From IMG/VR virus record IMGVR_UViG_3300010369_000001: a DNA stretch of 64,000 nucleotides; one strand, written 5' to 3'. Source of the stretch: a virus (taxonomy: Duplodnaviria > Heunggongvirae > Uroviricota > Caudoviricetes). Position numbers and translations under genes: made by a program. Under the pieces are notes generated by a model. The model made no database searches and was not told the origin of the DNA. It saw nothing but the letters and a program-made list of their open reading frames with translations. Positions 32,693 through 56,899 of the stretch are shown here, piece by piece (the stretch's first letter is position 1; the number at the start of each line of letters is the position of its first letter).

Positions 32693-33382
32693 TTAACCGC
32701 AAATAATTTTTGCTAGCTCAATCGGATCTACCGAATTACCTTCTTTATCTATTACCCGAATCACATTGCCCGATATTTCATCGGCCAGCATCAGCTTACC
32801 TTGATCGTCTGTGCCAAACTCTAGCTTAAAGTCAATCAACTCCAAACCTTTCTCTCGAATAATACTAGCTAGCAAATTGCCAACTTGACGAGTATAACCG
32901 TCGCAAAGATCATATTGTTCTTCTGTTAGCTTACCTAGTGCAATAGCTGCCTCAGCGTTAATTCGCGGATCACCTAGTGCATCGTCCTTAAGCGTAGCTT
33001 CAATCAAGCCATGTAACTCAAGTCCTTTCTCCACACCATACATCTTACAGAATGATCCCCAAGCTTTATCTCGCCAGATAAACTCGACCGGAATAATTTT
33101 TACGTGCTTTACGGTCAAGATGCGAGCTTCATCAACACCATTTACACGCATACCACCAGCACAAATAAAGTGTGTTGGTATTCCTTCTTTCTCAATCAGA
33201 GGAAAGAAGTAAGCACTTAGCTTCGCTGCTGCAATCCCGGACTCGTGCATTTGCAAGCCAGTTTGATTGGCTCCAGGGTCAAATTTACCAGTTGTAGCAT
33301 CAGTGCATACATCATCTTTAAAGCATAAATGACATCTTTCCGTATTATCTGCCGGAATGGCAATTTCTTTTGTTTTTCCCAT
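32693..33382 (-). CDS. purC: phosphoribosylaminoimidazole-succinocarboxamide (SAICAR) synthase PurC-like
   Basis: GIPTHF..., ELIDFKLEFG and LADEISGNVIRVIDKE are colinear with E. coli PurC GIPTQM..., LVDFKLEFG and LGDEFSPDGSRLWDKE. Confidence 0.75.
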   Translation of the reverse strand: MGKTKEIAIPADNTERCHLCFKDDVCTDATTGKFDPGANQTGLQMHESGIAAAKLSAYFFPLIEKEGIPTHFICAGGMRVNGVDEARILTVKHVKIIPVEFIWRDKAWGSFCKMYGVEKGLELHGLIEATLKDDALGDPRINAEAAIALGKLTEEQYDLCDGYTRQVGNLLASIIREKGLELIDFKLEFGTDDQGKLMLADEISGNVIRVIDKEGNSVDPIELAKIICG

Positions 33383-33417: not shown

Positions 33418-34155
33418 ATGATTGGTTTTATTTATAAACATACTTCTCCCTCAGGTAAAAGTTATATCGGCCAAACTACTTTAGTACCTAAAATACGCTG
33501 GAAGAAAGGCAGTAACTATAAAGGCTGCACTGCTTTTTATAGCGCAATTAAAAAGTATGGTTGGGAAAATTTTATAAGTGAAATTTTAGAAGAAATCGAA
33601 TTTGATGATATTGCTGTTTTAAATAAACTTGAAGAAAAATATGTAATTCAATTTAATACATTAGCTCCGTATGGTTATAATTTAAAAGCTGTTGGCGAAA
33701 ACACCTTAACAGCTGAAATAACTAAAGTACGAAAAACTAAACATTATGTTTTACATAAAGAAAAACAAGTTTCAGTTGCATCATTAGCTAAAGAGTACGG
33801 AATAAACCCACAAACATTATTTAATCGTGTGTTTAAATTTAATTGGGCATTAGAGAGGGCCTTAACTGAGCCAGCTACCGGACGTAAAGGTAAAAAGCAC
33901 ACAGATGAAAGTAAGAAGAAACAAAGTGACGCAAAGAAAGGAAAGAAAATGTCTAAAGAGTTTAAAGAAAAACAACGTACTATACACATCAAACACATTA
34001 TTGAATATAAGGGAAAACGACAACCAATAGTTGATTTTGCAAAACAATACGGAATTACACCGTCTACCCTTAGAGATCGTATTTTAAAATTTAATTGGCC
34101 AGTTGCAAAAGCAATAGAAACACCAATACGAAAGAAAATAAACTCTAAACTTTGA
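33418..34155 (+). CDS. GIY-YIG homing endonuclease with tandem C-terminal DNA-binding repeats
   Basis: The N-terminus IGFIYKHTSPSGKSYIGQT carries the GIY...YIG motif. Two C-terminal repeats follow: AKEYGINPQTLFNRVFKFNWALERAL and AKQYGITPSTLRDRILKFNWPVAKAI. It lies on the plus strand between purC and sbcC and overlaps the sbcC stop. Confidence 0.8.
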   Translation: MIGFIYKHTSPSGKSYIGQTTLVPKIRWKKGSNYKGCTAFYSAIKKYGWENFISEILEEIEFDDIAVLNKLEEKYVIQFNTLAPYGYNLKAVGENTLTAEITKVRKTKHYVLHKEKQVSVASLAKEYGINPQTLFNRVFKFNWALERALTEPATGRKGKKHTDESKKKQSDAKKGKKMSKEFKEKQRTIHIKHIIEYKGKRQPIVDFAKQYGITPSTLRDRILKFNWPVAKAIETPIRKKINSKL

Positions 34156-36223
34156 TAGTATAGAACAGATCTATAATACTTTCATCATGCGTAACTATTA
34201 ATGCTTGCTGCCCTGCTTTTCGAAACACCGCATCTACTTTAGTTAATACTTCATTAAAAATCTTACGATTATCTACAGATAGCCCATCGCCAGGCTCATC
34301 TAGACATAATAACCCAAACTTACTTGCGTTAGTCTGAAACGTACTTAACCAAAATGAAGTTGCAAGCATACACTGTTGACCACCAGATAGTGCCCTGGCA
34401 TCAACAGCAGCTCCACTTTTCATGGCGGCTCTAAATTCAAGATTTTCACCTAAACTAACTTTAAAAGGAGCATCAAACTCTAACAAATACGCATTTATAC
34501 TCAGTAGAAGTTGTTGTAGCAATTTTCGACTGATATTGTGTGGAATATTATTTCTATGAACTAAAGACCTAACCTCATTCAACAAATCCACATATTTAAT
34601 CAGCTTCTTCTGATTCTTTTTCTGTTTGACCTGCTTTAACAGTTCATTAAGAGATGCCCAATGCTCTCGTTTAGCTTTTAAATCAGCTTCGAGACCGGCC
34701 ATATTTATTTTAAGAGTTTGGAGCGTATCCAGTGCCAAACGTGCATTTCTGGCATTTTCTTCAATTATTGGTGCCTGTGCAACGATCTTCCGACTATTTT
34801 CTAATAATTTTTGTATTTCTGCTTCGCGGGCCTCTAAATCTACTAGCCCTCTACTTGCTGCGTCTAATGTTCGTCTTGCTTGTTCTACGTGCGGAAGTAA
34901 ATCTATTTGTTGCTGATACCTTGCACTCAGGTCTTCATAATATTGCGTATTGCTGCCAATATTTGTAACTTGCGTAGCTGCTAGTTTTTGTTTTAATTCA
35001 TAAATTCTAGCTGTCTTATTATCATTCAAGCTAATGTTACTAATATTAGTATTTAGCTGCTGTTCCAGTTTGAGCCGGTCATTAGCTAATTTATTGAGAG
35101 TATTAGCCAATACTATAGGATTACCTTTAAACTGATGCTCTGCTGCCGCGCCACAGACTTCACAATCTTCTCCAGCTTTCTCCGCAATTTTCTCTGCAAT
35201 TTTTAACTGAAGCTTGTGCTTAGCCTGCCTTTCAGCTATTGCTTGAATTTGCTCTGTTAACTGCTTATTAATTGCCTGTATCTCGTCTCTATTCCAATCT
35301 TTCAGCTGAAACTCTAGATTATCTAGGTCTTGTTTCATACCTACAATCAAAGAATAATTCATAAGATACTGTTTATAGGCATCTACCTCAGCTATCTCGT
35401 TTTGGTTTAGCTGAATTTCAGCATATTTCTCAGTAATTGCTTTATGTTCAACTTCAGCATAATTTTGCGCCTGTTTAGCCCCGGGAATGGAATTAACCAA
35501 CTTATGTATTTCCGCAGTGTAACTATCAACTAATGTTTGCTCAGTTTTAAGTTGTTGTGCGTAATCTAACGCCGATTGAAGTGCTTGCTCATTATACAGC
35601 GCAATTTCTGCCGTAACTCCAATAACTTTACACTCAGCCTCTTTTAGCTGAGTTGTCATCTCCTCAAGTTGAGCGGTTATTGATTGCTCATCAAAAGTTG
35701 GCCCGCTAGACATCACTGCTTCGTGAATTTTAATCGTGTCCGCTAACTTCTTCCAAAGTACCTCAAAATACTCAACATTTGATAAATGAGCTATTGTTTT
35801 AGCCCTATCAGCATCAGACAAGCTGAGAATATTGGTAAATTCCCCTTGTCGGATAAATACAAACTTATCTAACACATGTTTGACAATATTAAATCTGGAC
35901 GCTAGTATATTTTCTATATCTTTAGCCGCTCTAACAGTTTCATCATCAATAACTAATGTGTGTTTATTTTTCTCTCCGATTTCCCTAGTTACCTTAAAGT
36001 CATCGAACTCCACAACAATTTGCGCTTTATCGGATCCTTGCCGGATTACACCTTTCATTCCTTCTGGATGTTCGTATGCGTTAGTAAGGCCCCCGTATAG
36101 AGCTGAAACCAAGCTCGATTTACCGGATCCGTTACTTCCTACAATACAATTAACCCCAGCTTGGAACTCAGCTGTGAAATCTTTATGACAACAATAATTT
36201 TTAAGTTTTATACTTTTTAACAT
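34145..36223 (-). CDS. sbcC: SbcC/Rad50-like recombination ATPase (T4 gp46-like)
   Basis: Walker A GSNGSGKSS near the N-terminus, a long coiled-coil middle, and C-terminal LSGGQQ signature followed by LCLDEP (Walker B). Confidence 0.8.
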   Translation of the reverse strand: MLKSIKLKNYCCHKDFTAEFQAGVNCIVGSNGSGKSSLVSALYGGLTNAYEHPEGMKGVIRQGSDKAQIVVEFDDFKVTREIGEKNKHTLVIDDETVRAAKDIENILASRFNIVKHVLDKFVFIRQGEFTNILSLSDADRAKTIAHLSNVEYFEVLWKKLADTIKIHEAVMSSGPTFDEQSITAQLEEMTTQLKEAECKVIGVTAEIALYNEQALQSALDYAQQLKTEQTLVDSYTAEIHKLVNSIPGAKQAQNYAEVEHKAITEKYAEIQLNQNEIAEVDAYKQYLMNYSLIVGMKQDLDNLEFQLKDWNRDEIQAINKQLTEQIQAIAERQAKHKLQLKIAEKIAEKAGEDCEVCGAAAEHQFKGNPIVLANTLNKLANDRLKLEQQLNTNISNISLNDNKTARIYELKQKLAATQVTNIGSNTQYYEDLSARYQQQIDLLPHVEQARRTLDAASRGLVDLEAREAEIQKLLENSRKIVAQAPIIEENARNARLALDTLQTLKINMAGLEADLKAKREHWASLNELLKQVKQKKNQKKLIKYVDLLNEVRSLVHRNNIPHNISRKLLQQLLLSINAYLLEFDAPFKVSLGENLEFRAAMKSGAAVDARALSGGQQCMLATSFWLSTFQTNASKFGLLCLDEPGDGLSVDNRKIFNEVLTKVDAVFRKAGQQALIVTHDESIIDLFYTIKV

Positions 36224-37440
36224 TATTTCTTCACCATTGCTTTATAGTATGAGTCCAAAACCTCGTCAGCACTATCGCCACTGATTAAGTCCGTAAGTAA
36301 CTGTTTAGCCTCTATTGTTGCATCAGCCTCATTTATTGCGGTAGAAATTAGTACATCAAGCGTATCAGTTGGCGATCCAAAGAGCTCATTCTCCAGCTCC
36401 TCTACTTCATTTTTGACGGTGTCAATAAACGGAAAACATTTACCTTCGCAGGCCTTTATTAATTGCTCTTTTCTATCTGCATCGTTCTCATAAAGACTAA
36501 AGCGAATTATGGGGCGATCAAAATGAGAGGTCACGGGAGCTTTAATCCAATTACGAATTGTCTTATCAAACTCTACTGGATTTTCAATATTTCGTTCCTC
36601 ATAAGGCCGCCTGTAAAGTGTCTGACTATAAATCTTAGGCTCCCATTCATTTGACCACTCAAGAACAAAGCATTGTCCCGTATTAGTCTCTGCGACGGTT
36701 TGCATAGCTAAGCTGCCGGGAGAGTAACAAGTATTAAGATAGCCTTCTTTATCTATCAGCTCAAAGATTGCATGCTGATGCGTATCGCCACAAACAATAC
36801 AGTCGAATCCGTGCGGAATCATCCCATCATTTAATTCACAGGCGCGAAAATTGAAGAACTCCAGTTTAGCTGCCCGCGCATCACCTGTCCCAGCCATCAC
36901 TGCATTACAGGTCTGATGTAGCATCAGGATATTGTAAGCATTTGGATATTTCTTTTTATCTCGTTTTAATGCCGCACCTATTTCATCTAATCGATCTTGT
37001 AAATGAAGAGAAATACACCAATCCATTGCATAAACATGAATATCCATGCCGCCTAAATCGAGAGTGAAATGATAACGTTCAAAGCGCTCATCTGATTTCC
37101 TAAGCTTATCAAAATTTGCATGTGTACCTTTGGTTAGCTCCATCCAAGGTACGCCGACATCCGAGCGTTCATGCTGTCCTTGAATATAGGCAAATCGAAA
37201 ATTTTTGGAGGCCAATAATTTATTTGCCATAACAACTGCATCAGACGAAGGATTCTTCATGTCGAACAAGTCGCCAGCTCCTAGAATAACATCATAATTT
37301 GGTTTATCATCACCAGTATGCGTAACTATATCCATTAAATGTTTTAATGAATTTAATGCATCTCCGTGTATTTCCGGCCTATTTTTCCAGGCGCTTCTAG
37401 CTATGTGCCAGTCAGCCGTTAAGAATATTCGTCTGCTCAT
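36223..37440 (-). CDS. sbcD: SbcD/Mre11-like nuclease (T4 gp47-like)
   Basis: Calcineurin-like phosphoesterase motifs LTADWH, GDLFD and GQHE; immediately upstream of sbcC. Confidence 0.8.
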   Translation of the reverse strand: MSRRIFLTADWHIARSAWKNRPEIHGDALNSLKHLMDIVTHTGDDKPNYDVILGAGDLFDMKNPSSDAVVMANKLLASKNFRFAYIQGQHERSDVGVPWMELTKGTHANFDKLRKSDERFERYHFTLDLGGMDIHVYAMDWCISLHLQDRLDEIGAALKRDKKKYPNAYNILMLHQTCNAVMAGTGDARAAKLEFFNFRACELNDGMIPHGFDCIVCGDTHQHAIFELIDKEGYLNTCYSPGSLAMQTVAETNTGQCFVLEWSNEWEPKIYSQTLYRRPYEERNIENPVEFDKTIRNWIKAPVTSHFDRPIIRFSLYENDADRKEQLIKACEGKCFPFIDTVKNEVEELENELFGSPTDTLDVLISTAINEADATIEAKQLLTDLISGDSADEVLDSYYKAMVKK

Positions 37441-46482: not shown

Positions 46483-46740
46483 TTAAGTATTTAGCTCTCT
46501 AATTACATTGCCAATAGCTGTTTTTGCGTTTTGAATCAACATCAAGGCATAGTCAACACATTCAAGCGTCTTAATTTCGCCAGTCTCAGTCGGAGGGGCA
46601 AAACACATTGCGCCAGCTAAATTTAGCTCCCTCACGGCCGTCTCACATTTAGAAATTATAGCGCTTTTAAGTGTGGCTAGCGCGTCTTCACGCGTCTGTT
46701 GGGTTGTACTCATGTCCTTCGGATAAATAATGTAGAACAA
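46483..46740 (-). CDS. hypothetical protein
   Basis: 85-aa ORF. Confidence 0.4.
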   Translation of the reverse strand: MFYIIYPKDMSTTQQTREDALATLKSAIISKCETAVRELNLAGAMCFAPPTETGEIKTLECVDYALMLIQNAKTAIGNVIRELNT

Positions 46741-47158
46741 ACAATAAATTACACGATGCGTTAGCTAAATGATCACACTCTTTGCCGTCTTGATCTAGTT
46801 CTTTATCGCCCTCCAAGAATAAATAAATATGTCGAAGGGCGTGATTCAAACAGCCAGCAATAGGTAAGCCGCGGCGCCAATTATGCGCCCCATAGCGGTC
46901 TGCCCCAGTTTTTAACACGGCAGCTATGCGATGTAATGATTTTTGAGGAATTAAATCGTAACGAACATCATCAGCGTCCTTTGAACGTTGTGCGCCCGTC
47001 GCAAACTGCCGCATATCTTCAGGCTCAGTGGTATTAAGTATTTTTTCCTTTTTCTCAAGACTTTCTTTTTTATTCGCGGGCTTAAGTGTATCAGAAGACC
47101 TATTTTCAGAATGAGTTAAATATTCATCAGTATTTGCGCTGGATCTATGATTCGCCAC
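46688..47158 (-). CDS. hypothetical protein; possible dATP/dGTP pyrophosphohydrolase-like domain
   Basis: RYDLIPQKSLHRIAAVLKTGADRYGAHNWRRG resembles, from memory, the conserved core of phage NTP-pyrophosphohydrolase domains. Low certainty. Confidence 0.3.
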   Translation of the reverse strand: MANHRSSANTDEYLTHSENRSSDTLKPANKKESLEKKEKILNTTEPEDMRQFATGAQRSKDADDVRYDLIPQKSLHRIAAVLKTGADRYGAHNWRRGLPIAGCLNHALRHIYLFLEGDKELDQDGKECDHLANASCNLLFVLHYLSEGHEYNPTDA

Positions 47159-47426
47159 TGGTATCTATTACGTAAGTGCGTAGAAGTTGGACTGTATATG
47201 GCTCAGTATTATCTGGCCTAGCAGCGTTAAATGTTACATATTTATTAGGGCCAAATAATTCTTCTAAATCAGCTGGCGTTAAGTCATAATTAGTATAATT
47301 TTTAACTAAACCTGTTACATATTCTGCAAAGTACTCATCTTCGGGCAATTCCGTTTTAGCAAAAACTTCACGAAAAATTACACGATTAAAAGCTACTAGC
47401 ACGACTACGGTAACATAGACTTTCAT
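47145..47426 (-). CDS. hypothetical protein with N-terminal signal/anchor
   Basis: MKVYVTVVVLVAFNRVIF... Confidence 0.4.
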   Translation of the reverse strand: MKVYVTVVVLVAFNRVIFREVFAKTELPEDEYFAEYVTGLVKNYTNYDLTPADLEELFGPNKYVTFNAARPDNTEPYTVQLLRTYVIDTSGES

Positions 47427-47875
47427 TATTCTGCTCCCCCGAAAACTGAAGTTGCTGGATTAAAAGGCTCATAATGTTGCTCGGCAGCTGATTGCTCGGC
47501 AAACAGTTTATCCATCTGCATCGACCGGCTGTTTTCATTAACATTGGGTGTTCGTATCCAGCCAAAACTTGCTAATAGGTCATTTGCCATATTCGCCGCC
47601 CTAGCCGCCGCTAAGCCGCCAACAATTGCAACAGCCATTGCAAAGAATGGATTAAACATTACACAAGCGCCAATGCCTACAAAGAAAATACCCAAATAAT
47701 TAGAATAGCAGAAAGGGCAGCTCATTAGCTCGCCCAACCATTTTGTTGCCTTATTTTTCTCAAAATATTTACCAAGTGACCGCCACCAATTGCCAGCAGC
47801 TGAGTGGTGTAAGATTTCTGTTAGCTGCCATACGGCGGCACAGGATATGATGAACCAAAGCCCAAATGTGATCAT
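47426..47875 (-). CDS. hypothetical membrane protein (3-4 TM helices)
   Basis: FGLWFIISCAAVW, YLGIFFVGIGACVMF and FAMAVAIVGGLAAA. Confidence 0.45.
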   Translation of the reverse strand: MITFGLWFIISCAAVWQLTEILHHSAAGNWWRSLGKYFEKNKATKWLGELMSCPFCYSNYLGIFFVGIGACVMFNPFFAMAVAIVGGLAAARAANMANDLLASFGWIRTPNVNENSRSMQMDKLFAEQSAAEQHYEPFNPATSVFGGAE

Positions 47876-50241
47876 AGATTTTTAAGTAATTCAGCAGCGC
47901 TTATTTCAGTCTGCTCGTAACCTTGTTTTTCATATAATTTCTTCCGTTCAGCGGAAAAATGTTTAAATTCTGTACTCCAATAATCATAAAAGTCGTGAAC
48001 TACTCCATAAGGCTTATCGTCCCCCAGCCTAGCCACTCTGCCAGTTAGCTGAATATTGGCCACCTCTGATTTCAGCCCGCAGGCATTAATTAACACAGCT
48101 AAATTAGGGAAATCTACGCCCTCTCGCCATATGGCTGTGGCAATTACTCGTTTCAAGGTGCCTTTCTTAAACGCACCTCTAGCGCGATCTAAATCTGGCG
48201 TTTCCGAGCTAACTACTAGATAATTTGGTAAAAGCTGCCTTAAAGCCATCGCGTGCTTTATTGTTTCCACAATAATCAGCACCTGTGTATCTTCGTCGTA
48301 AGACTTAGCCGCCGCTGCAATTAAATTATTTCTGGGGGCATTGTACCAGATACCTCTGTGCTTCTTGTAAGCTGAATGGCATTTACCTACCGGATTATAT
48401 TGCAGATGAACTGGTACCCATTTTACCTTCACAGGAGCAACCATACCTTGCTTTGTAGCTTCTTTGGTATCAACTGTAATTAATTTTGGCCCCATCAAGC
48501 CTAGAAGACGGAATTGGGCCCCATCGCTTCTGTTAAAGCTACCTGTCAGCCCAAATATCCTTGGTTTGACCATCGTGGAGATAGTCTTAAAAGTATCAGG
48601 CGCTGCAGCTAAATGGCAATTGCCGCTTATGAAAGAAAAGCCTTCTGACCTTACTACAATATTGCCGCTCGGCACCTCCACACAATAAACGTTGCCTGAA
48701 TACTTCTCTAATTCATGTGTAACGTTTTTAAACGTATTGTGCTCTTTTTTCGACATGAATAATCTGTGCATATCTTGATAAGATTCTTTTCGATAATCTT
48801 TTTGTATGCTTTGAACACAACTAAAACCTCCCTGAATAGCAATGGCTGACACTAAATCTACATTTTCTTTTACACTGCTGCTGTAGTATTGGTAGTCTTT
48901 TTTTAGAATATATCCGTCCCACAATGATACCTCATTTACAAAATCAACTGCGTAAGCACGAGTTACCGCTACATTATTAAACCAAGTTATTAAATTTTTA
49001 GTTATTTCGAGTGGTGTTTTGATCACAAATCGAACATACCCTTCCCTGTCTATAGGTATTTCTTTAAATTCAACGCCTGACTCCAATAATATTTCTTTTA
49101 AGCGTAAAATTTTACGCTCTTTGACCAAGGATATAGACCAATATGCATAATCTCTTTTAACATAATTTCTAGTGCCGTCCGCCTGCAATGCAATAGCTAA
49201 TCGATCTATGGCCGCTAATGTAGCTATTTCATTAACGCCTATGCCTGACACAGGGTACTTATTGTATTGCGCACGAACTATATCAAGTATTGGTTTTTTG
49301 CAGACATTATCTTGCCTATCCAAATAAGTCTGATTATGTCCAACCGTCATTCGAACACTTCTTCCCTTATACAGAGTTAACTTAACTAAATCACCTGAAA
49401 ACTCTTTCTTAATATGTCGAAGTGGTTTTACAAACTGTATCGACCTATCTGCACTCCACTGCGCAATTAATTCTGTACCATCTAGCGAATCAAAACGTTT
49501 ATAACCTTTATTGGTTAATACCTCAGTATCTCCAGTAAAACATTCATCGCAAATATAAAAGTCATAGTCTTCTCCGAAACTAAGTATTTTAGTAAGGGAT
49601 TTATTTCCACATACCACGACCCTAGCTTGCTTAACTTGAGCTTGTGTAATAGACTTACCAGCTTGTTGTATAAAATACTTAGTGCCCGGCATATTATATT
49701 TGCGGATACGTTCACCTATAGTTGAATAAACTTGAGCTCGATAACTGCTTATAAGAATACGCGCTTTAGGGAACACTAGTGGCATTATACCAACAAGCTC
49801 ACTTTTACCAAAAGCAACAGAGCAAACTATAATACCGCCGGCATTTTTAGCCATTAGCTCCAAGACTTCTTTTTGTTTATAACGGAACTCAAAGTCAGCT
49901 GGGATTTTGTCCCATACGGGTACATAATTTTCAGCGGGTGATAGCTCAGTTATTTTATGCTCTACCTTTATTTTATGCTTAAGACAAAACGCTAAAATTG
50001 CGGGTAGGTACCCGTGAAAAGTCACAATCTGAGCGGGGATGGCTGTTGTACTTAAATCAACTGTTTGACCGTTAGTGTCATAACCGCTGCCGAGTATCTC
50101 TGGCGTAAGAGTTCTTTTATTAGCCTCTCTATCAAACCCTACAAGTGTGTACGAGAAGCATTTCTTTAGCTCGTAATACAAATGTAAGGGGAAGGAGCGA
50201 ATAATTAAAAGATTTCCATAAGTTTCAATGTCAATTATCAT
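47872..50241 (-). CDS. SF2 DExH-box helicase precursor interrupted by an intein (predicted mature helicase 481 aa)
   Basis: Walker A AFGKSE; motif II reconstituted across the intein as FYICDE|CHLAAAP (DECH); motif VI QLTGRVARLG. Confidence 0.75.
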   Translation of the reverse strand: MIIDIETYGNLLIIRSFPLHLYYELKKCFSYTLVGFDREANKRTLTPEILGSGYDTNGQTVDLSTTAIPAQIVTFHGYLPAILAFCLKHKIKVEHKITELSPAENYVPVWDKIPADFEFRYKQKEVLELMAKNAGGIIVCSVAFGKSELVGIMPLVFPKARILISSYRAQVYSTIGERIRKYNMPGTKYFIQQAGKSITQAQVKQARVVVCGNKSLTKILSFGEDYDFYICDECFTGDTEVLTNKGYKRFDSLDGTELIAQWSADRSIQFVKPLRHIKKEFSGDLVKLTLYKGRSVRMTVGHNQTYLDRQDNVCKKPILDIVRAQYNKYPVSGIGVNEIATLAAIDRLAIALQADGTRNYVKRDYAYWSISLVKERKILRLKEILLESGVEFKEIPIDREGYVRFVIKTPLEITKNLITWFNNVAVTRAYAVDFVNEVSLWDGYILKKDYQYYSSSVKENVDLVSAIAIQGGFSCVQSIQKDYRKESYQDMHRLFMSKKEHNTFKNVTHELEKYSGNVYCVEVPSGNIVVRSEGFSFISGNCHLAAAPDTFKTISTMVKPRIFGLTGSFNRSDGAQFRLLGLMGPKLITVDTKEATKQGMVAPVKVKWVPVHLQYNPVGKCHSAYKKHRGIWYNAPRNNLIAAAAKSYDEDTQVLIIVETIKHAMALRQLLPNYLVVSSETPDLDRARGAFKKGTLKRVIATAIWREGVDFPNLAVLINACGLKSEVANIQLTGRVARLGDDKPYGVVHDFYDYWSTEFKHFSAERKKLYEKQGYEQTEISAAELLKNL
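48619..49542 (-). mobile_element. intein (308 aa) with LAGLIDADG-like homing-endonuclease region, inserted between DE and CH of helicase motif II
   Basis: N-terminal CFTGDTEVLT; block B RMTVGHNQTY (T..H); LAIALQADGT (LAGLIDADG-like); C-terminal NVYCVEVPSGNIVV...FSFISGN followed by +1 Cys (CHLAAAP). Splicing gives ...ICDECHLAAAP. Confidence 0.65.
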
Positions 50242-51386: not shown

Positions 51387-51676
51387 GACAATACGGGTGG
51401 CCCAATTACTGCCACATGAATAGGAACACCTTCTAATTCATACGGTATGCTAATTTCTGGGGCACTATTACAGTAAACATAAAGACATCCCTCTCCTACA
51501 CCAACACACTGAAACCAACCATCCGTTGAATGAATGTCGCCGCGAATACAGTGTTCATATAAGGTTTGAACTAAGCTATAAGCTTTTTCTTGAAGCAGTA
51601 CCTTCTCTTCAATATATATTTCTTTTAGTCGAGCTTTAAGCTTCCTCTTCTCTTTTGATAGAACTGTTTGCATCAT
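51383..51676 (-). CDS. hypothetical protein
   Basis: 97-aa ORF. Confidence 0.4.
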   Translation of the reverse strand: MMQTVLSKEKRKLKARLKEIYIEEKVLLQEKAYSLVQTLYEHCIRGDIHSTDGWFQCVGVGEGCLYVYCNSAPEISIPYELEGVPIHVAVIGPPVLS

Positions 51677-52352
51677 AAATTTTCCAATCGTTAGCTAACA
51701 TGTGGCGCGTTTGCGGTTCATATACTACTACTCTATCATTAAGATCGCAGCGCATAATAGGACGACAATCACCTGCTGAATATAGGTATTTCGGGCAGGC
51801 ATACGGGCATTGCTCGGTTATGCCTTGCTTTTCCCAAAATTCACGAACTACTTGCCATCCGTTGTTCATGGCCTGACAAGCCTCTAACCAGTTCATATGC
51901 TCGACTTCATGATTATTTATTTGATCAACAGTCGTGCTTTCCTGTAATTCATGCATAACCGTCGCAGCTATGCTACTTGATTGTGCCATGAGGGCGCGCA
52001 GTAAAGCATATGTGTCCACGTATGAGCCTCTAGATAACATTTCTCTAAGCGCTACCTCTAGTGCTAGTTTTACTCTTGGGGTTAAAGTCGGGCTTGCCTC
52101 CTCACAGCACGCGGACTCATTATTCGAAAAGCCAATGTATTTTTCGACACTTTTACGAAGTTGCGATTCAGTAACGTCTGCAGTGGCGCACACCTTATTT
52201 AACGCATGTAGCGCAGGGCCCCCCACCTTAGCGACTGCGAGTAAGATATGCTCCGTACCGATGTAGTTACAATTTCGCCGCTGAACTTCCTCTTTAGCGG
52301 CCATCATGATCTCATTAACTATAGGTGTGTAATTATTACTTGTAATCATCAT
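51636..52352 (-). CDS. Clp N-terminal-domain (Clp_N repeat) protein
   Basis: Two Clp_N-type repeats: AAKEEVQRRNCNYIGTEHILLAVAKVGGPALHALNKV and RVKLALEVALREMLSRGSYVDTYALLRALMAQ. Compare ClpA/ClpB N-domain ..TVEHLLLALL... Confidence 0.65.
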   Translation of the reverse strand: MMITSNNYTPIVNEIMMAAKEEVQRRNCNYIGTEHILLAVAKVGGPALHALNKVCATADVTESQLRKSVEKYIGFSNNESACCEEASPTLTPRVKLALEVALREMLSRGSYVDTYALLRALMAQSSSIAATVMHELQESTTVDQINNHEVEHMNWLEACQAMNNGWQVVREFWEKQGITEQCPYACPKYLYSAGDCRPIMRCDLNDRVVVYEPQTRHMLANDWKIYDANSSIKREEEA

Positions 52353-53326
52353 CCTAACTCCTTCATTTTGTATCTTTGCAGCTTATCAGCTAAGGCTTTA
52401 TAAAACGACTGATGAGGTGGTGCAATATGATCCATACTTAGGTCGTTCCATTTAACACGAACTAACCCAGTAATATCGTCGTGAGCCTCAGGCGTACCTC
52501 CACAAACCTGTCCCAAATATAAAATCGAAATAATTTTATTGATTTCAGCTCTGTAGCGGTAATCATCTATTTGCATGGAAGTAACGTAGCTAAGATTTGT
52601 AATGTCCAGCCCGGCTTCTTCTTTGACTTCACGCTTAGCAGTATACTCATACGAAGTATCGCCAGGATCAGCAAAACCTCCAATAAACAGATACTGCTGC
52701 TGATATGTTTTGCTTTTTTGTCCAAGCCAGATATAAAGATTATCAAAATTAGGCGGAATTAATTCACCTTCAAAAATAGCTACGTCCACGCAAGGGTAAA
52801 CCGCATCAAATTGATTTTGAGTTGCCCATATTACGCCTTCGCGCCACCATTTATTACCTACTACTCGCTTACCGCACTCAGCTCGATCTTCCGTAGCTGA
52901 AGTTTGGTAAAGCTGCAAAGGTTTATACTCATGTGTACTAAATTTACCTTCGTAAGCCCATAGAAAGCTATCACGACTGCCGTAGAGCACAGCTGCCCTG
53001 TTGCCAGCTAGCTCCGCTATGATTTTATCTAATTTAGCTGACCATTCAGCATTATCGCCTGGAATGTCCTCTATTACGGCAAAAGATACCTTTCTTTCAA
53101 AGCCAAACTTTAGATCGTAGACATAGTCTTGAAGCATCCTAATCCTAGAATCTACATCAAGAGGATGACGTTTAGTTGCTGTGCCAAGTAATGATTTACC
53201 CAAAACAATAATGGTGAGATTATGATTTTGCCCTAATACATAGTTAATTAAATCTTTTTGACCGTCATGAGGCTCAGCACATTGCCATCGTCCCACAATG
53301 ACCCCAACATCCGTTCTAGTTGTCAT
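52349..53326 (-). CDS. natV: bifunctional NMN adenylyltransferase / Nudix hydrolase (NatV/NadM-Nudix-like)
   Basis: N-terminal nucleotidyltransferase motif VIVGRWQCAEPHDGQ (GRFQP.H.GH-like). C-terminal Nudix box GGFADPGDTSYEYTAKREVKEEAGL. Confidence 0.8.
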   Translation of the reverse strand: MTTRTDVGVIVGRWQCAEPHDGQKDLINYVLGQNHNLTIIVLGKSLLGTATKRHPLDVDSRIRMLQDYVYDLKFGFERKVSFAVIEDIPGDNAEWSAKLDKIIAELAGNRAAVLYGSRDSFLWAYEGKFSTHEYKPLQLYQTSATEDRAECGKRVVGNKWWREGVIWATQNQFDAVYPCVDVAIFEGELIPPNFDNLYIWLGQKSKTYQQQYLFIGGFADPGDTSYEYTAKREVKEEAGLDITNLSYVTSMQIDDYRYRAEINKIISILYLGQVCGGTPEAHDDITGLVRVKWNDLSMDHIAPPHQSFYKALADKLQRYKMKELG

Positions 53327-53436
53327 AGTAATTCCTTTAAGGGTTAAAGTCTCCGTCGGAAATATAATAAAGTATCGCCATGAGCAGAACTAAAATTATA
53401 AATGTAAGTAAAAGGTGCATTAAATGTATTTCTAAA

Positions 53437-54177
53437 TTAAGCATCAATTTTTTGAACTATTTCATGCATATCGGCTACAATTCGGGCATATTCCGGGAGA
53501 TGGCTATAGCGAGAATATTTACGAATAATCTGCCTCGGACAGTAGCCGTATATGTTAGTCACTGAATCTTTAACAGGTTTTTTCCTGGGATGCTTAACTA
53601 GAGTAGTCTCAACATTCCAAAGTTTACACACCGGGCAAGCATCTCCTGCCTGATACACTGCTTGAGTCTCCGGACAGCACATAGAGTCAATCCCGTCACC
53701 GCTACTAAAACCTTCCGTATTCATTCTAAGAATTCCATCATATTTCCATGCCTCTGGCGGAAGATTCTTACCTTGACAATGGCTTACGTCATAGACGTGA
53801 AATAATGTCGCGGCTGGATTAGCCATTAAACAATCCACAAATTTACCATCAGGGGTAACTCTAAGAGAGTGACTAAAACCACTAACAACATATTCCCAGC
53901 CCGCACTATCTTTAACAATTACTGGCAGTTGACCTATTTCTAATTGCTCGCTAAAGTTTACTATGACTTGATTAAGATGATCGTTATACTCGCCAATCGG
54001 GTAAAGATGTAGCTCATCGTGAAACCGTGACCAACCTTTTATATTTTTTTCTTCAACAAACTTATCAAGAACGCTAATCATTCTAGGATCGACCGTACTT
54101 AATAAAGTTTCTATAGCCTCTCTTGTCGCATATTTTTTAGGCATGTGTAATTTTTGGTGAAAGATTAAGTGGGCCAC
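53437..54177 (-). CDS. hypothetical protein embedded between natV and nadV
   Basis: 246-aa ORF with a C-terminal Cys cluster CCPETQ...CPVC; no recognisable family. Confidence 0.5.
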   Translation of the reverse strand: MAHLIFHQKLHMPKKYATREAIETLLSTVDPRMISVLDKFVEEKNIKGWSRFHDELHLYPIGEYNDHLNQVIVNFSEQLEIGQLPVIVKDSAGWEYVVSGFSHSLRVTPDGKFVDCLMANPAATLFHVYDVSHCQGKNLPPEAWKYDGILRMNTEGFSSGDGIDSMCCPETQAVYQAGDACPVCKLWNVETTLVKHPRKKPVKDSVTNIYGYCPRQIIRKYSRYSHLPEYARIVADMHEIVQKIDA

Positions 54178-54205
54178 AGGTTAGTTGCGACCCCACTTAA
54201 TAAAT

Positions 54206-55633
54206 TTAGTACGCGTTAGCTCTTACTTCATCAAAAGTATATTCTTTCATAATTTTTCCATCACGAAAGACTTCAACCATAGCTGGCTTCCACGTACGGG
54301 TTTGATCGTCATCTTTACCGCGACCCATAAAACTAGTTTCATTAACAGTATAAAACCCGCCGGTATCAGATTTAAACGTGGTAACAAGACCTCGTTTAGA
54401 CTGTTTACCGTGATCCGTAATTGGATCTTTGAACACTTCTTGCCAGCGGCCATCTCGCTCAATGGCGCTGCACTTAAAGGCCATTTTCTGGGTGTCTCTG
54501 TTAAGCTGTTGAAGTAACGCTCCGCCAGAACCGAAAGCGATGTTTTCAGCTGAATAGCCGCGCTGTTGCATTGCATACAAGATAGCATCTATACTTTCAA
54601 TATTAACGCCGTCGCCTTGAATAACGCGGATTTTGTTATTTAGCAGCTTGTAACCTTTATCGCTGATCGTTCCGCCAAACTCGCCCCAAAGAATATCCAT
54701 TACATTCTCATTACCCGTAACCAGTACTTGAATTGGATCACCAGAGTCAGGGCGGATGACCAACGTTCCATCTCGTTCAAGAATCATATCTCGTAATGGA
54801 TAACGACCCCACATTCGACAAGCTTCAAAAATATTGAAAGAATCAGATACACAGGCTACGATACCAGTCGGATAGGCTTCTAGCATATTCTTATAAGCTA
54901 ATATCTCGTCCTCGCGACCCCAGCTTGTTATTGTAGAATGCTCGCTAGCTGGAATACTAAAACCTGCCATATCTGCACCATAGTAATAGCTAGCATATTC
55001 TATAGCTGCCATTGTGTCAGTTCCCTTGAAATTAATCAAGTGAGCCATTCCGCCAAGGCCAGCACTCTCGCAAGAGCTAACTCCTCGAAAACCGAAATCA
55101 TGAAGCTTAAAATCAATACTATCAGCATTACCTTGTGTCTTCATTAGATACTTAGTAATGAGATGTTTCATTTCACGAGACTGTGTCGCAACAGTGCACG
55201 GATACCAAAGCTGCATTAACAATGTTTCAAGATAATTAGTTAACCAGTAACATTTCGGATCCGTATTACAAATAACTACCAACGGATGCCCAGTTGGGAC
55301 AGGAGTTCCTTCTGGAATTGCCCAAATAGAAACGGGTAACCTGCCATCATGTTTATCGTAAATATACTCCCAGCCTTCTTTATTAAACAATCCTGGGCCG
55401 AGATGCTGTTCCATGCGTTGTGCAGCATAGTCAATATTGCCTTTCGTGAAAAGCGGATTATACGGATGATGCAAATACTCTTTTAAAATATATTGCAATC
55501 CAAAGAAAACTGTGTCAGACCATTTGCCGCCGCGTGATTCAAGATAGGAATAAATAGTCTGCGTATTTGGCGGATATTGTCGCCAATGTGATACTTTATA
55601 TGAGTCAGTTAGTAACAGCAGGTTCGGTCTCAT
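54206..55633 (-). CDS. nadV: nicotinamide phosphoribosyltransferase (NadV/NAMPT)
   Basis: LHDFGFRGVSSCESAGLGGMAHLINFKGTDTM; length is consistent with NAMPT. Confidence 0.85.
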   Translation of the reverse strand: MRPNLLLLTDSYKVSHWRQYPPNTQTIYSYLESRGGKWSDTVFFGLQYILKEYLHHPYNPLFTKGNIDYAAQRMEQHLGPGLFNKEGWEYIYDKHDGRLPVSIWAIPEGTPVPTGHPLVVICNTDPKCYWLTNYLETLLMQLWYPCTVATQSREMKHLITKYLMKTQGNADSIDFKLHDFGFRGVSSCESAGLGGMAHLINFKGTDTMAAIEYASYYYGADMAGFSIPASEHSTITSWGREDEILAYKNMLEAYPTGIVACVSDSFNIFEACRMWGRYPLRDMILERDGTLVIRPDSGDPIQVLVTGNENVMDILWGEFGGTISDKGYKLLNNKIRVIQGDGVNIESIDAILYAMQQRGYSAENIAFGSGGALLQQLNRDTQKMAFKCSAIERDGRWQEVFKDPITDHGKQSKRGLVTTFKSDTGGFYTVNETSFMGRGKDDDQTRTWKPAMVEVFRDGKIMKEYTFDEVRANAY

Positions 55634-55994
55634 TTATGGTTTTTTGCTCCCGTTCTTTGAATTTCTTTAATAAGTTCTGTTCATAACTTAGCAATACTGC
55701 ACAATAAAGCTGCTCTAAACCTCCGCCAGGCCCTTGTTCGATTACTCTATTTTCTACAGTTAGCTCATAGAAGTAGTGCGGAATATCGCCATTCCAGTCC
55801 CAAAACCACGTAGCTTGATACCGGCGTTTTTTAGCTATGGCAATTTTAATATCCGTACCGAAACAAGCTTTAAAGCCGCCTGTTTCGCAGATAGTGTTGT
55901 AACCAGCACACCAGATAATATCTTCTACTTTATCTTGAAGCTCAATAAGAATTTCTTCTATTGGCTTACTCAAATCAAATTTTAATTCGCTCAT
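55605..55994 (-). CDS. hypothetical protein
   Basis: 129-aa ORF. Confidence 0.45.
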   Translation of the reverse strand: MSELKFDLSKPIEEILIELQDKVEDIIWCAGYNTICETGGFKACFGTDIKIAIAKKRRYQATWFWDWNGDIPHYFYELTVENRVIEQGPGGGLEQLYCAVLLSYEQNLLKKFKEREQKTINETEPAVTN

Positions 55995-56899
55995 TAGTCT
56001 TTAATGTTAAACATGGGCATTACACCGCCCTCTCCGATAAGTAATGTTTGTGGTACGTCTCCATTCCAGCGATTAATAGCTTCCCACAGTGCCAGCTGAG
56101 GTTTAGCATATTCGAGACGCATACGCATTGATTCAGCTTCCGCTTCAGCTTTAGCTAAAATCGCGCCCGCTTCTCCCTCCGCCTTAGCAATCGCCTGCTT
56201 AGCTTCAACCTCGACTCGTAGAAGCTCATTTTCTGCACGCAAGAACGCCTGCTCAGCTACTACTTTTTGTTCAATTGCTGCATCAAACTCTCGACTGAAA
56301 TTAAAACTCACCACGTTTACCTGAGTTACGATAATTCCGTAATCTGCCAATCGCGTCTCAAGAATTTCCCTCATTTGCTGTGAAACTTCTTGTCGCTGCG
56401 TAATAAGTTCCTCAGCTGTAAATCTAGCAGTCACTGCTTTAAATACTTCAGCTGTGCCCGGCATAATTACAATTGATTCATAACGAATTCCAATATTTCG
56501 GAATAAATCTACAACTTGTGTGCGCTCCAGGTGATAATTTATGATGATCGACGAAGTGACGGTTTGCAAATCTCTTGAAGCAGCTTCGTTACCAGTAACC
56601 TCAGCTTTCTGAATTCGAGTATCAATACTATGCACTTGTGTCAAGAAGGGTGCTACAAAATGAATTCCTTCTGTTAACTCTGAATCACGCGCAGTGCCTA
56701 AAAACACACTAACGCCTACATAACCGGGCTGTACAATACGGATAGACTTAAACGTTCCTATTACAATAAGCAGAATAAAAATAGTTAAAATTGTCCATTT
56801 AATAATAGGTTTTGCTTCCTCCCATTCACGTTGCGACATTGCGATCTCCTCTAATTGTTTAAGGTTATTAAAAAATTCTATTTGTTTATTTTTTCTCAT
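55994..56899 (-). CDS. SPFH/band-7 (stomatin/prohibitin/HflKC-like) membrane protein
   Basis: N-terminal TM ILTIFILLIVIGTF, then an SPFH core IVQPGYVGVSVFLGT...GIHFVAPFL...IDTRIQ and a coiled-coil/Ala-rich C-terminus. Confidence 0.7.
   Translation of the reverse strand: MRKNKQIEFFNNLKQLEEIAMSQREWEEAKPIIKWTILTIFILLIVIGTFKSIRIVQPGYVGVSVFLGTARDSELTEGIHFVAPFLTQVHSIDTRIQKAEVTGNEAASRDLQTVTSSIIINYHLERTQVVDLFRNIGIRYESIVIMPGTAEVFKAVTARFTAEELITQRQEVSQQMREILETRLADYGIIVTQVNVVSFNFSREFDAAIEQKVVAEQAFLRAENELLRVEVEAKQAIAKAEGEAGAILAKAEAEAESMRMRLEYAKPQLALWEAINRWNGDVPQTLLIGEGGVMPMFNIKD

What the first reader, a model, noticed from the sequence alone, without database searches (positions are those of the whole stretch)
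52349..55633. NAD+ salvage pair NadV (NAMPT) plus NatV (NMNAT-Nudix)
nadV (DFGFRG block) and natV (GRFQP-like nucleotidyltransferase plus Nudix box) together rebuild NAD+ from nicotinamide via NMN. This pathway is known in KVP40-like phages. I recall it was recently described as a counter to NAD+-depleting immune effectors (Thoeris, DSR, SEFIR and others), but the attribution is from memory. Finding it in what appears to be a non-T4-like backbone (family A polymerase, DnaB) is notable.
Basis: partly seen in the sequence, partly recalled or inferred. Interest (0 to 1): 0.55.

Follow-up and report, generated by a model that had tools for sequence, protein, structure and literature searches.

The report
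Phage NAD+ rebuilding gene pair (NARP2)
A large uncultivated phage carries the already-known two-enzyme kit (NadV plus NatV) that rebuilds the cofactor NAD+ from nicotinamide. It is an ordinary new example, with an unusual gene order, one odd active-site motif and two uncharacterised neighbour genes.

Summary
Two minus-strand ORFs end exactly at the stated coordinates.

- **nadV** (54206-55633, 475 aa) is a canonical NAMPT. It scores 605.6 bits against an NCBIfam cut-off of 405, is about 50% identical to human NAMPT, and keeps all 13 literature catalytic and binding residues.
- **natV-like gene** (52349-53326, 325 aa) has a NadM-type NMN adenylyltransferase domain plus a Nudix domain. Its family profile and its AlphaFold model both hit the Francisella and Synechocystis NadM-Nudix structures first. 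hhalign gives 98.5% probability to a KVP40-type NatV.

This is NARP2 (Osterman et al.). That paper's own table already lists the closest phage relatives as "Nmnat-associated". In 72 of 80 related viral contigs natV and nadV lie within 10 kb on the same strand.

It is therefore a new member of a known kind. The "non-T4 backbone" point is not notable, because the pair is typical of jumbo phages.

Real deviations:
- NatV belongs to a remote clade, about 19% identical to the KVP40 type.
- Its ATP motif reads H-D-G-Q instead of (H/T)xGH.
- The gene order is reversed (seen in 1 of 72 related loci).
- A 235-aa Cys-rich gene of a very rare family sits between the pair. One homologue is fused to a Nudix-like domain.
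- A ClpC-N-domain/Tad2-like fusion gene overlaps the natV stop codon.

The functions of these extras are untested.

The parts
54206..55633 (-). nadV: nicotinamide phosphoribosyltransferase (NAMPT/Nampt), 475 aa
   Evidence: Pfam NAMPT_N plus NAPRTase. NCBIfam PRK09198 at 605.6 bits against a cut-off of 405. PHROG 448 at 1e-163. Human NAMPT PDB chains at E 1e-141 to 1e-144. 50% identity to human NAMPT, with D10, Y12, F180, R183, D206, H232, D264, R294, D296, G340, D341, G370 and G371 matching the 13 catalytic/binding residues listed in PMC3665594.
54171..54193 (-). Stable RNA hairpin between the nadV stop and the start of gene X. It may be a leaky terminator or a stabiliser; its function was not tested.
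   Evidence: Terminator-like site with 8 pairs and a weak T tail. The 76-nt context folds at -19.4 kcal/mol, z -3.35, and 0 of 200 shuffles fold as well.
53437..54144 (-). Gene X: 235-aa Cys-rich protein of a very rare family, function unknown
   Evidence: The ATG at 54144 matches the N-termini of homologues. No hit in Pfam, PHROG, NCBIfam, PADLOC or PDB. Exhaustive HMMER over 1.84 billion representatives finds only two full-length homologues plus fragments, and one more comes from the profile search. 62 of 235 residues are invariant, including C123, C170, C173, C202, H42 and H56. Contexts: L008 has X-100aa-NatV. L010 has X-104aa-ClpN/Tad2-like. In L009, X is fused to a TM1382-like putative Nudix domain.
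52349..53326 (-). natV-like gene: bifunctional NadM-type NMN adenylyltransferase (residues ~5-165) plus Nudix hydrolase (residues ~175-310), 325 aa
   Evidence: Pfam NUDIX at 1.2e-11. Weak NCBIfam NadM-Nudix hit on residues 1-134 (1.5e-7). The family profile hits 2QJT and 2QJO with both domains at E 4e-20 and 1.5e-19, and hits archaeal NMNATs. AF2 model pLDDT is 86.3. Top Foldseek PDB hits are 2QJT, 2R5W and 2QJO at E 1e-16. The top BFVD hit is the Colwellia phage 9A cytidyltransferase-like protein at 5e-17. hhalign to the KVP40-type NatV of Vibrio phage D479 gives 98.5%, E 3e-15. The motif is H20-D-G-Q23; S143 and R148 and the Nudix residues R232, E233, E236 and E237 are kept.
51636..52352 (-). 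Neighbour gene overlapping the natV stop codon (probably translationally coupled): ClpC-type N-terminal domain fused to a Tad2-like (DUF2829) domain, 238 aa
   Evidence: Pfam Clp_N at 1.9e-12 and Tad2-like at 26.7 bits against a cut-off of 25, covering 1-72 of 73 profile positions. ClpC N-domain structures at E 1.5e-13 over residues 7-137. For the C-domain the only PDB hits are Tad2 entries 9EIB and 8V3E at E about 0.2. The start overlaps the natV stop as ATGA, with AAGGAG upstream. The same domain pair occurs in L010.

Best explanation
The locus is a NARP2-type NAD+ reconstitution (salvage) module of a large, uncultivated, non-T4 jumbo-type phage.

- NadV joins nicotinamide to PRPP to give NMN.
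- The N-terminal NadM-type domain of the NatV-like protein adenylylates NMN with ATP to give NAD+.
- Its C-terminal Nudix domain most likely splits ADP-ribose (or NADH/NAD-type dinucleotides) into AMP and ribose-5-phosphate. The host Prs enzyme can turn that ribose-5-phosphate back into PRPP.

Together the genes keep NAD+ available during infection. In particular they would do so when host defence effectors (Thoeris ThsA, DSR1/2, SIR2-HerA, SEFIR) cleave NAD+ into nicotinamide and ADP-ribose.

Shown here: homology, domain architecture, catalytic residues, and conserved linkage of the two genes. Inferred: the enzyme activities, the Nudix substrate, and the counter-defence role.
For: - NadV is a NAMPT by every test, and all 13 literature residues are conserved.
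- NatV-like protein: both domains match the solved NadM-Nudix enzymes, by profile and by predicted structure. It is homologous to a KVP40-type NatV.
- The only nucleotidyltransferases hit in the PDB are NMNATs.
- Linkage: of 80 viral loci with this NatV clade, 72 carry NadV within 10 kb on the same strand, with a median gap of 146 nt.
- NARP2 is defined and experimentally shown to restore NAD+ and defeat NAD+-depleting defences. The Nampt genes of the nearest phage relatives (LR756502, LR745206, RsoM2USA, CcrBL9) are listed there as 'Nmnat-associated'.
- The contig is phage: it has a gpA-like terminase and a family A polymerase, and its relatives are in IMG/VR.
Against: - The NatV copy departs from its own family at 5 of 38 highly conserved NMNAT-domain positions. 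That is tied for the highest count among 120 sequences. The changes include F14W, L19P and, in the (H/T)xGH ATP motif, H23Q.
- In E. coli NadD the equivalent H19A change leaves 0.62% activity.
- Direct HMM assignment fails the curated cut-offs.
- No enzymatic or infection data exist for this clade or this phage.
- Only 64 kb of a genome of at least 225 kb could be inspected for other NAD+ genes.
Confidence: 0.8

Rival explanations
1. Same genes, but the NMNAT half of this particular NatV copy is crippled. The phage would make NMN with NadV and rely on the host NadD or NadR for adenylylation. The NatV-like protein would then act mainly as a Nudix ADP-ribose/NADH pyrophosphatase.
For: - The second His of the (H/T)xGH motif is Gln, whereas 115 of 119 homologues have His. 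F14W is unique to this copy. L19P, N54H and D92N are also rare.
- There are 5 deviations at 38 conserved N-domain columns, tied for the highest of 120.
- H19A in E. coli NadD leaves 0.62% activity.
- The Nudix catalytic residues are intact.
Against: - Gln at that position recurs in three other backgrounds (TDGQ, TYGQ, HPGQ), which suggests it is tolerated.
- 33 of 38 conserved N-domain positions are kept, including R13, H20, H35, D87, W95, S143 and R148.
- The ratio of N-domain to C-domain identity is within the family range, at the 14th percentile.
- The model is confident, with pLDDT 86. There is no truncation or frameshift.
Confidence: 0.15
2. The pair is mainly a metabolic booster (an auxiliary metabolic gene set) that raises NAD+ for the phage's own replication needs. 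On this reading it is not primarily a counter-defence device.
For: - NARP2 raises NAD+ even in cells without a defence system.
- NAD+ genes are described as typical of jumbo phages.
- The window is rich in other nucleotide-metabolism genes: ThyX, SAICAR synthetase, Thg1-like.
Against: - NARP2 was shown experimentally to overcome several NAD+-depleting defences.
- A Tad2-like (anti-Thoeris sponge family) domain gene overlaps the natV stop codon and is probably translationally coupled to it.
- The phage ligase in the window is ATP-dependent, so there is no obvious NAD+-consuming phage enzyme here.
- The two roles are not mutually exclusive.
Confidence: 0.25
3. NadV is a NARP1-type Namat. It would build NAD+ directly from ADPR-pyrophosphate rather than making NMN from PRPP.
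For: Namat and Nampt are homologous, and KVP40 Nampt shows minor activity on ADPR-PP.
Against: - None of the 43 window ORFs scanned against Pfam hit a Prs/Adps-type family.
- NadV is 50% identical to human NAMPT.
- An Nmnat partner is present and is conserved next to NadV across the clade.
- The nearest relatives are classed 'Nmnat-associated' rather than Adps-associated.
Confidence: 0.03
4. Gene X is an unrelated insertion, either a moron or a selfish mobile gene, that landed between the two genes during the rearrangement that reversed their order. On this reading it has no role in NAD+ metabolism.
For: - In 7 of 72 related loci other genes sit between natV and nadV, including ORFs that look GIY-YIG- and LAGLIDADG-like by eye.
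- In the KVP40-like phage D479 eight small genes separate the pair.
- X is absent from all 80 related loci.
- A hairpin separates nadV from X.
Against: - In 3 of 4 loci with a full-length homologue, X lies next to or is fused with a Nudix-fold protein. In 2 of 4 it lies near a ClpN/Tad2-like gene.
- It has no endonuclease signature in any library.
Confidence: 0.5

Closest known systems
NARP2 of Vibrio phage KVP40 (NadV/Nampt plus NatV/Nmnat-Nudix; Lee et al. 2017 as cited in, and Osterman et al. bioRxiv 10.1101/2024.02.11.579819)
   Same: The same two enzyme types, and the same predicted chemistry: nicotinamide plus PRPP gives NMN, then NMN plus ATP gives NAD+. NatV has the same bifunctional NMNAT-Nudix architecture.
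   Different: - NatV is only about 19% identical to the KVP40 type. It has a 2-residue insertion in the GRFxP-HxGH motif and a shorter interdomain linker.
- The motif ends in Gln rather than His.
- The backbone is not T4-like.
- The genes are ordered nadV-X-natV.
NadM-Nudix of Francisella tularensis (PDB 2QJT, 2R5W) and Synechocystis slr0787 (2QJO)
   Same: These are the best sequence-profile and structure matches, and both domains match. The residues aligning to the conserved Asp...Trp pair of the NMNAT domain and the REx2EE Nudix core are kept.
   Different: - 16-17% identity.
- The relative domain orientation differs in the model (rmsd about 12 A over both domains).
- The Nudix box carries one extra residue before the REx2EE core (my reading of the sequences).
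- The NCBIfam equivalog cut-offs are not reached.
Human/vertebrate NAMPT (for example PDB 2GVG, 6TAC)
   Same: About 50% identity over the full length, and all 13 catalytic/binding residues including the autophosphorylated His (H247 in human, H232 here).
   Different: It lacks the vertebrate 42-51 loop region. It is phage-encoded.
natV-nadV operons of uncultivated jumbo phages (LR756502, LR745206, LR756500; Tunturiibacter phage Tunturi_5; 258 IMG/VR contigs)
   Same: The same NatV clade (34-42% identity) and the same NadV clade (43-52%). The NadV genes of LR756502 and LR745206 are already catalogued as Nmnat-associated.
   Different: Those loci have natV upstream of nadV (71 of 72) with a median gap of 146 nt. 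Here the order is reversed and gene X is inserted.
NARP1 (Adps plus Namat) and NARP3 (PnuC-like plus NadR-like)
   Same: The same end result, rebuilding NAD+ to escape NAD+-depleting immunity.
   Different: The substrates and enzymes differ. No Adps-type hit was found among the 43 window ORFs scanned against Pfam, and no PnuC or NadR gene was recognised among them.
Tad2 (DUF2829) anti-Thoeris sponge, SPO1 Tad2
   Same: The C-terminal domain of the downstream gene matches Pfam Tad2-like above its cut-off. Its only PDB hits are Tad2 entries.
   Different: Tad2 is an 89-aa stand-alone tetramer. Here the domain is fused behind a ClpC-type N-domain, and the similarity is weak (E about 0.2 to the solved Tad2 structures). 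Ligand binding is untested.

Membership tests
NAMPT (NadV / Nampt) | NAMPT_N plus NAPRTase domains scoring above curated thresholds | tested here: met
   Pfam 112.7 and 180.6 bits (cut-offs 25 and 20.8). NCBIfam PRK09198 at 605.6 bits against 405.
NAMPT (NadV / Nampt) | Catalytic and substrate-binding residues Asp16, Tyr18, Phe193, Arg196, Asp219, His247, Asp279, Arg311, Asp313, Gly353, Asp354, Gly383, Gly384 (human numbering, PMC3665594) | tested here: met
   All 13 are conserved: D10, Y12, F180, R183, D206, H232, D264, R294, D296, G340, D341, G370, G371.
NAMPT (NadV / Nampt) | Makes NMN from nicotinamide plus PRPP, and prefers PRPP over ADPR-PP | not testable with these tools
   This needs an enzyme assay. 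Indirect support only: an Nmnat partner is present, no Adps gene is seen in the window, and relatives are classed Nmnat-associated.
NadM-Nudix / NatV bifunctional NMNAT | Two-domain architecture: N-terminal NadM-type nucleotidyltransferase plus C-terminal Nudix | tested here: met
   The profile hits 2QJT and 2QJO on both domains. Foldseek top hits are 2QJT, 2R5W and 2QJO over about 360 columns. hhalign to a KVP40-type NatV gives 98.5% over 270 columns.
NadM-Nudix / NatV bifunctional NMNAT | Direct HMM assignment above curated cut-offs (NCBIfam PRK05379 models; Pfam CTP_transf_like) | tested here: not met
   The best NCBIfam NadM-Nudix score is 30.9 bits against a cut-off of 409. The N-domain alone has no Pfam hit even at E up to 10. 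Relatives P0013, P0111 and the Tunturi_5 protein also fall far below the cut-offs.
NadM-Nudix / NatV bifunctional NMNAT | Canonical (H/T)xGH ATP-binding motif after GRFxP | tested here: not met
   The sequence reads GRWQCAEPH20-D-G-Q23. The first His is kept and the second is Gln. Among homologues 115 of 119 have His and 4 have Gln.
NadM-Nudix / NatV bifunctional NMNAT | Second nucleotidyltransferase motif (ISSTxxR-like Ser...Arg) and the conserved Asp...Trp pair of the NMNAT domain | tested here: met
   S143 and R148 (SATEDR) and D87 and W95 are invariant in the family and kept here. They align to the same residues in 2QJT and 2QJO. Their roles are taken from knowledge of archaeal NMNATs, not tested here.
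NadM-Nudix / NatV bifunctional NMNAT | Nudix catalytic core REx2EE | tested here: met
   R232, E233, E236 and E237 are invariant. Pfam NUDIX scores 45.2 bits against 21.1.
NadM-Nudix / NatV bifunctional NMNAT | NMN adenylyltransferase and ADPR/NADH pyrophosphatase activities | not testable with these tools
   These need enzyme assays.
NARP2 system | Nampt and Nmnat encoded together in one phage genome | tested here: met
   Both lie within 3.3 kb on the same strand. Linkage is conserved in 72 of 80 related viral loci.
NARP2 system | Restores NAD+ and overcomes NAD+-depleting defence systems | not testable with these tools
   Shown only for the KVP40 genes.
Tad2 (anti-Thoeris sponge) - for the downstream neighbour | DUF2829 domain above the Pfam threshold | tested here: met
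   26.7 bits against a cut-off of 25, covering profile positions 1-72 of 73. This is marginal. The PDB Tad2 hits are only at E about 0.2.
Tad2 (anti-Thoeris sponge) - for the downstream neighbour | Small stand-alone protein (about 89 aa) forming a tetramer that binds gcADPR | tested here: not met
   This is a 238-aa fusion behind a ClpC-type N-domain. Oligomer state and ligand binding are not testable here.

The most novel reading that the evidence does not exclude
The four co-oriented genes nadV, X, natV and the ClpN-Tad2-like gene form one extended counter-defence island. On this reading, gene X is a new accessory enzyme or regulator of ADP-ribose/NAD+ turnover that works with a Nudix domain. 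X is a Cys-rich protein with four invariant cysteines, is found next to NatV in another phage, and is fused to a Nudix-like domain in a third. The ClpC-N-domain/Tad2-like fusion would be a new form of immune-signal sponge. NatV's H-D-G-Q motif would mark an adapted rather than a decayed active site.
Probability: 0.15. Interest if true: 0.6.

Novelty: new member of a known kind. Interest (0 to 1): 0.3.

Why it matters
As it stands, this adds one more uncultivated jumbo-type phage to the roughly 1% of phages that carry NARP2. It also confirms that the divergent NatV clade is tightly linked to NadV (72 of 80 loci). That linkage supports annotating those "cytidyltransferase" and "NUDIX" genes as Nmnat.

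The modest added value lies in four leads:
- A natural H-to-Q variant of the nucleotidyltransferase signature, which could be tested cheaply.
- A very rare conserved protein (X) that keeps company with Nudix domains.
- A ClpC-N-domain/Tad2-like fusion coupled to natV, which hints that NAD+ rebuilding and signal sequestration may be deployed together against Thoeris-like systems.
- A reversed gene order relative to the rest of the clade.

None of these changes the known picture unless experiments show a function.

Tried and rejected
- **Near-identical DNA in 50,697 phage records:** none found.
- **Gene X in family libraries:** no hit in Pfam, PHROG, NCBIfam or PADLOC.
- **Gene X in the PDB:** no hit by profile.
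- **Gene X structure:** the single-sequence AlphaFold model was unusable (pLDDT 41.8), so no fold search was run on it.
- **Gene X homologue searches:** the word-indexed search found only the window's own protein. Scans of IMG/VR and JGI metagenome contigs with the X alignment found nothing.
- **Gene X in GTDB genomes:** the scan gave one weak partial match in a high-GC Gaiellaceae MAG. I judged it spurious.
- **Weak HMMER hits of X to giant repeat proteins (P0126-P0130):** P0127 and P0130, read by eye, are an RCC1-like and a surface-repeat protein, and I judged the whole group spurious.
- **L008 flanks:** I tested whether the genes flanking X and NatV there are NadV. They are not.
- **Promoter scan:** the count was no higher than in shuffled sequence, so no promoter is claimed.
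- **NARP1/Namat reading:** rejected because there is no Adps, an Nmnat partner is present, and relatives are classed Nmnat-associated.
- **Other nucleotidyltransferase families (CTP:glycerol-3-phosphate, PPAT, FMNAT) for the NatV N-domain:** rejected because only NMNATs are hit by profile and by fold.
- **P0123 C-terminal domain:** no Pfam or NCBIfam hit. Its Nudix-like nature rests on a match to PDB 3E57, the source's own name, and my reading of a GGH...RELLEEL motif.
- **Intein insert against the PDB:** no hit.

Full report
**Observation**

The ORF listing shows a continuous run of minus-strand genes. The two named genes sit exactly at the ends of the finding:
- 54206-55633(-), 475 aa, containing HDFGFRG.
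- 52349-53326(-), 325 aa, beginning GVIVGRWQCAEPHDGQ and containing GGFADPGDTSYEYTAKREVKEEAGL.

Mechanically it runs 53437-54177 from a GTG. The ATG at 54144 gives 235 aa and matches the N-termini of its homologues. GC content (about 0.41) and GC skew are uniform with the surroundings.

**NadV**

- Pfam finds NAMPT_N (1e-32) and NAPRTase (5e-53).
- NCBIfam PRK09198 scores 605.6 bits against a cut-off of 405.
- PHROG 448, "nicotinamide phosphoribosyl transferase", scores 1e-163.
- Human and rodent NAMPT structures match at E 1e-141 to 1e-144 over residues 4-474.

PMC3665594 lists 13 catalytic and binding residues: Asp16, Tyr18, Phe193, Arg196, Asp219, His247, Asp279, Arg311, Asp313, Gly353, Asp354, Gly383 and Gly384. 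A global alignment to human NAMPT shows all 13 conserved and about 50% identity.

**NatV-like protein**

Direct HMM assignment is weak.
- Pfam sees only NUDIX (1.2e-11).
- The N-domain alone has no Pfam hit even at E up to 10.
- The best NCBIfam NadM-Nudix model gives 30.9 bits on residues 1-134 against a cut-off of 409.

The protein has 226 homologues at E of 1e-5 or better, and JGI names many of them "bifunctional NMN adenylyltransferase/nudix hydrolase". Evidence from the family:
- A profile of 27 members (A1) hits the solved NadM-Nudix enzymes first, Francisella 2QJT at 4e-20 and Synechocystis 2QJO at 1.5e-19, on both domains. It then hits archaeal NMNATs (1F9A, 1EJ2 and others). It hits no other nucleotidyltransferase family.
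- The AlphaFold model built with A1 is confident (pLDDT 86.3).
- Its best PDB matches are 2QJT, 2R5W and 2QJO over about 360 columns at E 1e-16.
- Its best viral matches are a two-domain "cytidyltransferase-like" protein of Colwellia phage 9A and a "bifunctional NMNAT/ADPR pyrophosphatase".
- A KVP40-type NatV, Vibrio phage D479 VPHD479_0277, scores 256 bits on NCBIfam NadM-Nudix. It aligns to A1 with hhalign probability 98.5%, E 3e-15, at about 19% identity over both domains.

So the second refutation test, that the nucleotidyltransferase aligns to another family, is also not met. The gene is nonetheless a remote clade relative to KVP40 NatV.

**Active-site detail**

In this clade the signature is GRFQ-x-x-x-L-H-x-(A/G)-H, a 2-residue insertion relative to GRFQPFHxGH. 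The window copy reads GRW-Q-C-A-E-P-H20-D-G-Q23.
- F14W is unique among 119 homologues.
- L19P occurs in 2 of 119.
- The second His is Gln in 4 of 119.

Overall the copy deviates at 7 of 64 columns that are at least 90% conserved, against a family median of 1. Five of the seven lie in the NMNAT domain, tied for the highest count among 120 sequences. In E. coli NadD the equivalent H19A mutation leaves 0.62% activity (PMC1249556).

Against decay:
- Gln recurs at this position in three other sequence backgrounds.
- 33 of 38 conserved N-domain positions are kept, including R13, H20, H35, D87, W95, S143 and R148.
- The ratio of N-domain to C-domain identity is within the family range.
- The Nudix core R232, E233, E236 and E237 is intact.

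I therefore keep "active NMNAT" as the main reading and give the "NMNAT-impaired" rival about 15%.

**Linkage and context**

The exact NatV protein occurs on metagenomic contigs of up to 225 kb. The window has no near-identical DNA among sequenced phages. It does encode phage functions:
- a gpA-type terminase
- a family A polymerase with an N-terminal UDG-like domain
- SbcC/SbcD-like proteins
- ThyX
- SAICAR synthetase
- an ATP-dependent ligase
- a Thg1-like protein

A scan of IMG/VR found 258 contigs with this NatV clade, many of 100-440 kb.
- Of the 80 loci fetched, 72 carry a NadV homologue within 10 kb, always on the same strand.
- In 71 of those 72 the order is natV then nadV, with a median gap of 146 nt.

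That conserved pairing is independent support that this divergent clade works with NadV. The window is the unusual case: nadV lies upstream, X is inserted, and natV lies downstream. Insertions are not unique to it. Seven of 72 loci have gaps above 1 kb, holding an aminotransferase-like ORF, GIY-YIG- and LAGLIDADG-like ORFs and a NADAR-like ORF (these labels are my reading of the translations). In the KVP40-like phage D479 eight small genes separate the pair.

**Comparison with the literature**

Osterman et al. defined NARP2 as KVP40 Nampt plus Nmnat. They showed that it counters type I Thoeris and other NAD+-depleting systems, and found it in about 1.1% of phage genomes. Their supplementary table lists the Nampt genes of LR756502, LR745206, RsoM2USA and CcrBL9 as "Nmnat-associated". 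LR756502 is the best phage match to the window's NadV, and its natV belongs to the same clade. PMC7139368 states that NAD+ metabolism genes are typical of jumbo phages, and that 21 of 50 NatV-encoding phages exceed 200 kb. NadV homologues occur in 1990 phage records of many genera.

**Gene X (53437-54144)**

X has no match in any family library or in the PDB. Exhaustive HMMER against 1.84 billion representatives finds two full-length homologues at 43-44% identity plus fragments. A profile search adds one more. Four full-length sequences share 62 invariant residues, including C123, C170-P-x-C173, C202, H42 and H56. X is thus a real gene under constraint, possibly with a four-Cys metal site (inference).

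Its contexts are suggestive:
- In L008 it lies one small gene upstream of a NatV homologue.
- In L010 it lies one small gene upstream of a DUF2829-ClpN-DUF2829 protein.
- In L009 it is fused to a C-terminal domain that matches the Thermotoga protein TM1382 (PDB 3E57, E 3e-8). JGI names that fusion "predicted NUDIX family phosphoesterase".

With only four loci, and these possibly from related phages, shared ancestry cannot be separated from functional linkage. X is also absent from the 80 IMG/VR loci. I treat a functional link as a minority possibility.

**Downstream neighbour (51636-52352)**

Its ATG overlaps the natV stop codon (ATGA), with an AAGGAG Shine-Dalgarno sequence upstream. It is therefore almost certainly co-expressed with natV. 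Residues 7-139 form a ClpC-type N-terminal domain (Pfam 1.9e-12; ClpC N-domain structures 1.5e-13). Residues 153-225 match Pfam Tad2-like just above its cut-off (26.7 against 25). For that domain the only PDB hits are Tad2 structures, at E about 0.2. Tad2 proper is an 89-aa stand-alone gcADPR sponge. This fusion therefore fails that part of the family definition, and its function is open.

**Other signals**

A stable hairpin lies between the nadV stop and the X start (54171-54193; -19.4 kcal/mol; z -3.35). Sigma-70-like promoter matches are no more frequent than in shuffled sequence.

**Verdict**

The finding is real and correctly identified. It is a new member of a known kind (NARP2), not a surprise. 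The secondary features are leads worth a note rather than discoveries:
- the remote NatV clade
- the H-D-G-Q motif
- the reversed gene order
- gene X
- the ClpN-Tad2-like neighbour

Noticed in passing
window 51636-52352 (-): A 238-aa protein fuses a ClpC-type N-terminal domain to a Tad2-like (DUF2829) domain. Its start overlaps the natV stop codon (ATGA). A related architecture (DUF2829-ClpN-DUF2829, 407 aa) occurs at L010:4850-6073 near an X homologue. No full-length match exists among sequenced phages.
   Followed up: partly
window 53437-54144 (-): Gene X sits between nadV and natV and was not mentioned in the finding. It belongs to a very rare Cys-rich family with four full-length homologues in billions of proteins. 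One homologue is fused to a Nudix-like domain (L009), and one lies next to a NatV homologue (L008).
   Followed up: yes
window 54171-54193 (-): A stable hairpin sits directly after the nadV stop codon and before gene X (-19.4 kcal/mol in its 76-nt context, z -3.35). Its T tail is weak, so it may be a leaky terminator or a stabiliser.
   Followed up: partly
window 47872-50241 (-), insert 48619-49542: An SF2 helicase has its DE|CH motif II split by a 308-aa insert. The insert begins CFTGDTEV and ends SGN, followed by Cys, which is the pattern of an intein. Pfam Intein_splicing reaches only 21.3 bits (cut-off 35.8), and there is no PDB sequence hit.
   Followed up: partly
window 20835-24044 (-): The family A DNA polymerase (1069 aa) carries an N-terminal uracil-DNA-glycosylase-superfamily domain (Pfam UDG 1e-8).
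   Followed up: no
window 55994-56899 (-): An SPFH/Band 7 protein (PHROG 200) lies two genes upstream of nadV. Homologues lie about 2 kb from natV in L088 and L091.
   Followed up: no
window 7398-8219, 8457-9461, 31729-32469, 32693-33382, 34145-37440 (all -): Other metabolic and replication genes are present: a Thg1-like tRNA-His guanylyltransferase, an ATP-dependent DNA ligase, ThyX, SAICAR synthetase and an SbcC/SbcD-like pair. SAICAR synthetase and an AIR carboxylase family (AIRC) gene also lie near the NatV homologue in L004.
   Followed up: no
L016-L095 (IMG/VR loci); L093:11306-11791; L004:4907-5344: In the NatV clade the order natV then nadV is almost fixed (71 of 72). Occasional inserts between the two genes include homing-endonuclease-like ORFs and a NADAR/YbiA-like ORF (by my reading of the translations). 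A NADAR-domain gene also lies near the NatV homologue in L004.
   Followed up: partly
window 46688-47158 (-) and 47426-47875 (-): The precomputed annotation of the identical contig (L001) marks a dGTP_diPhyd_N (PF18909) protein and a weak DUF1360 protein just downstream of the helicase.
   Followed up: no
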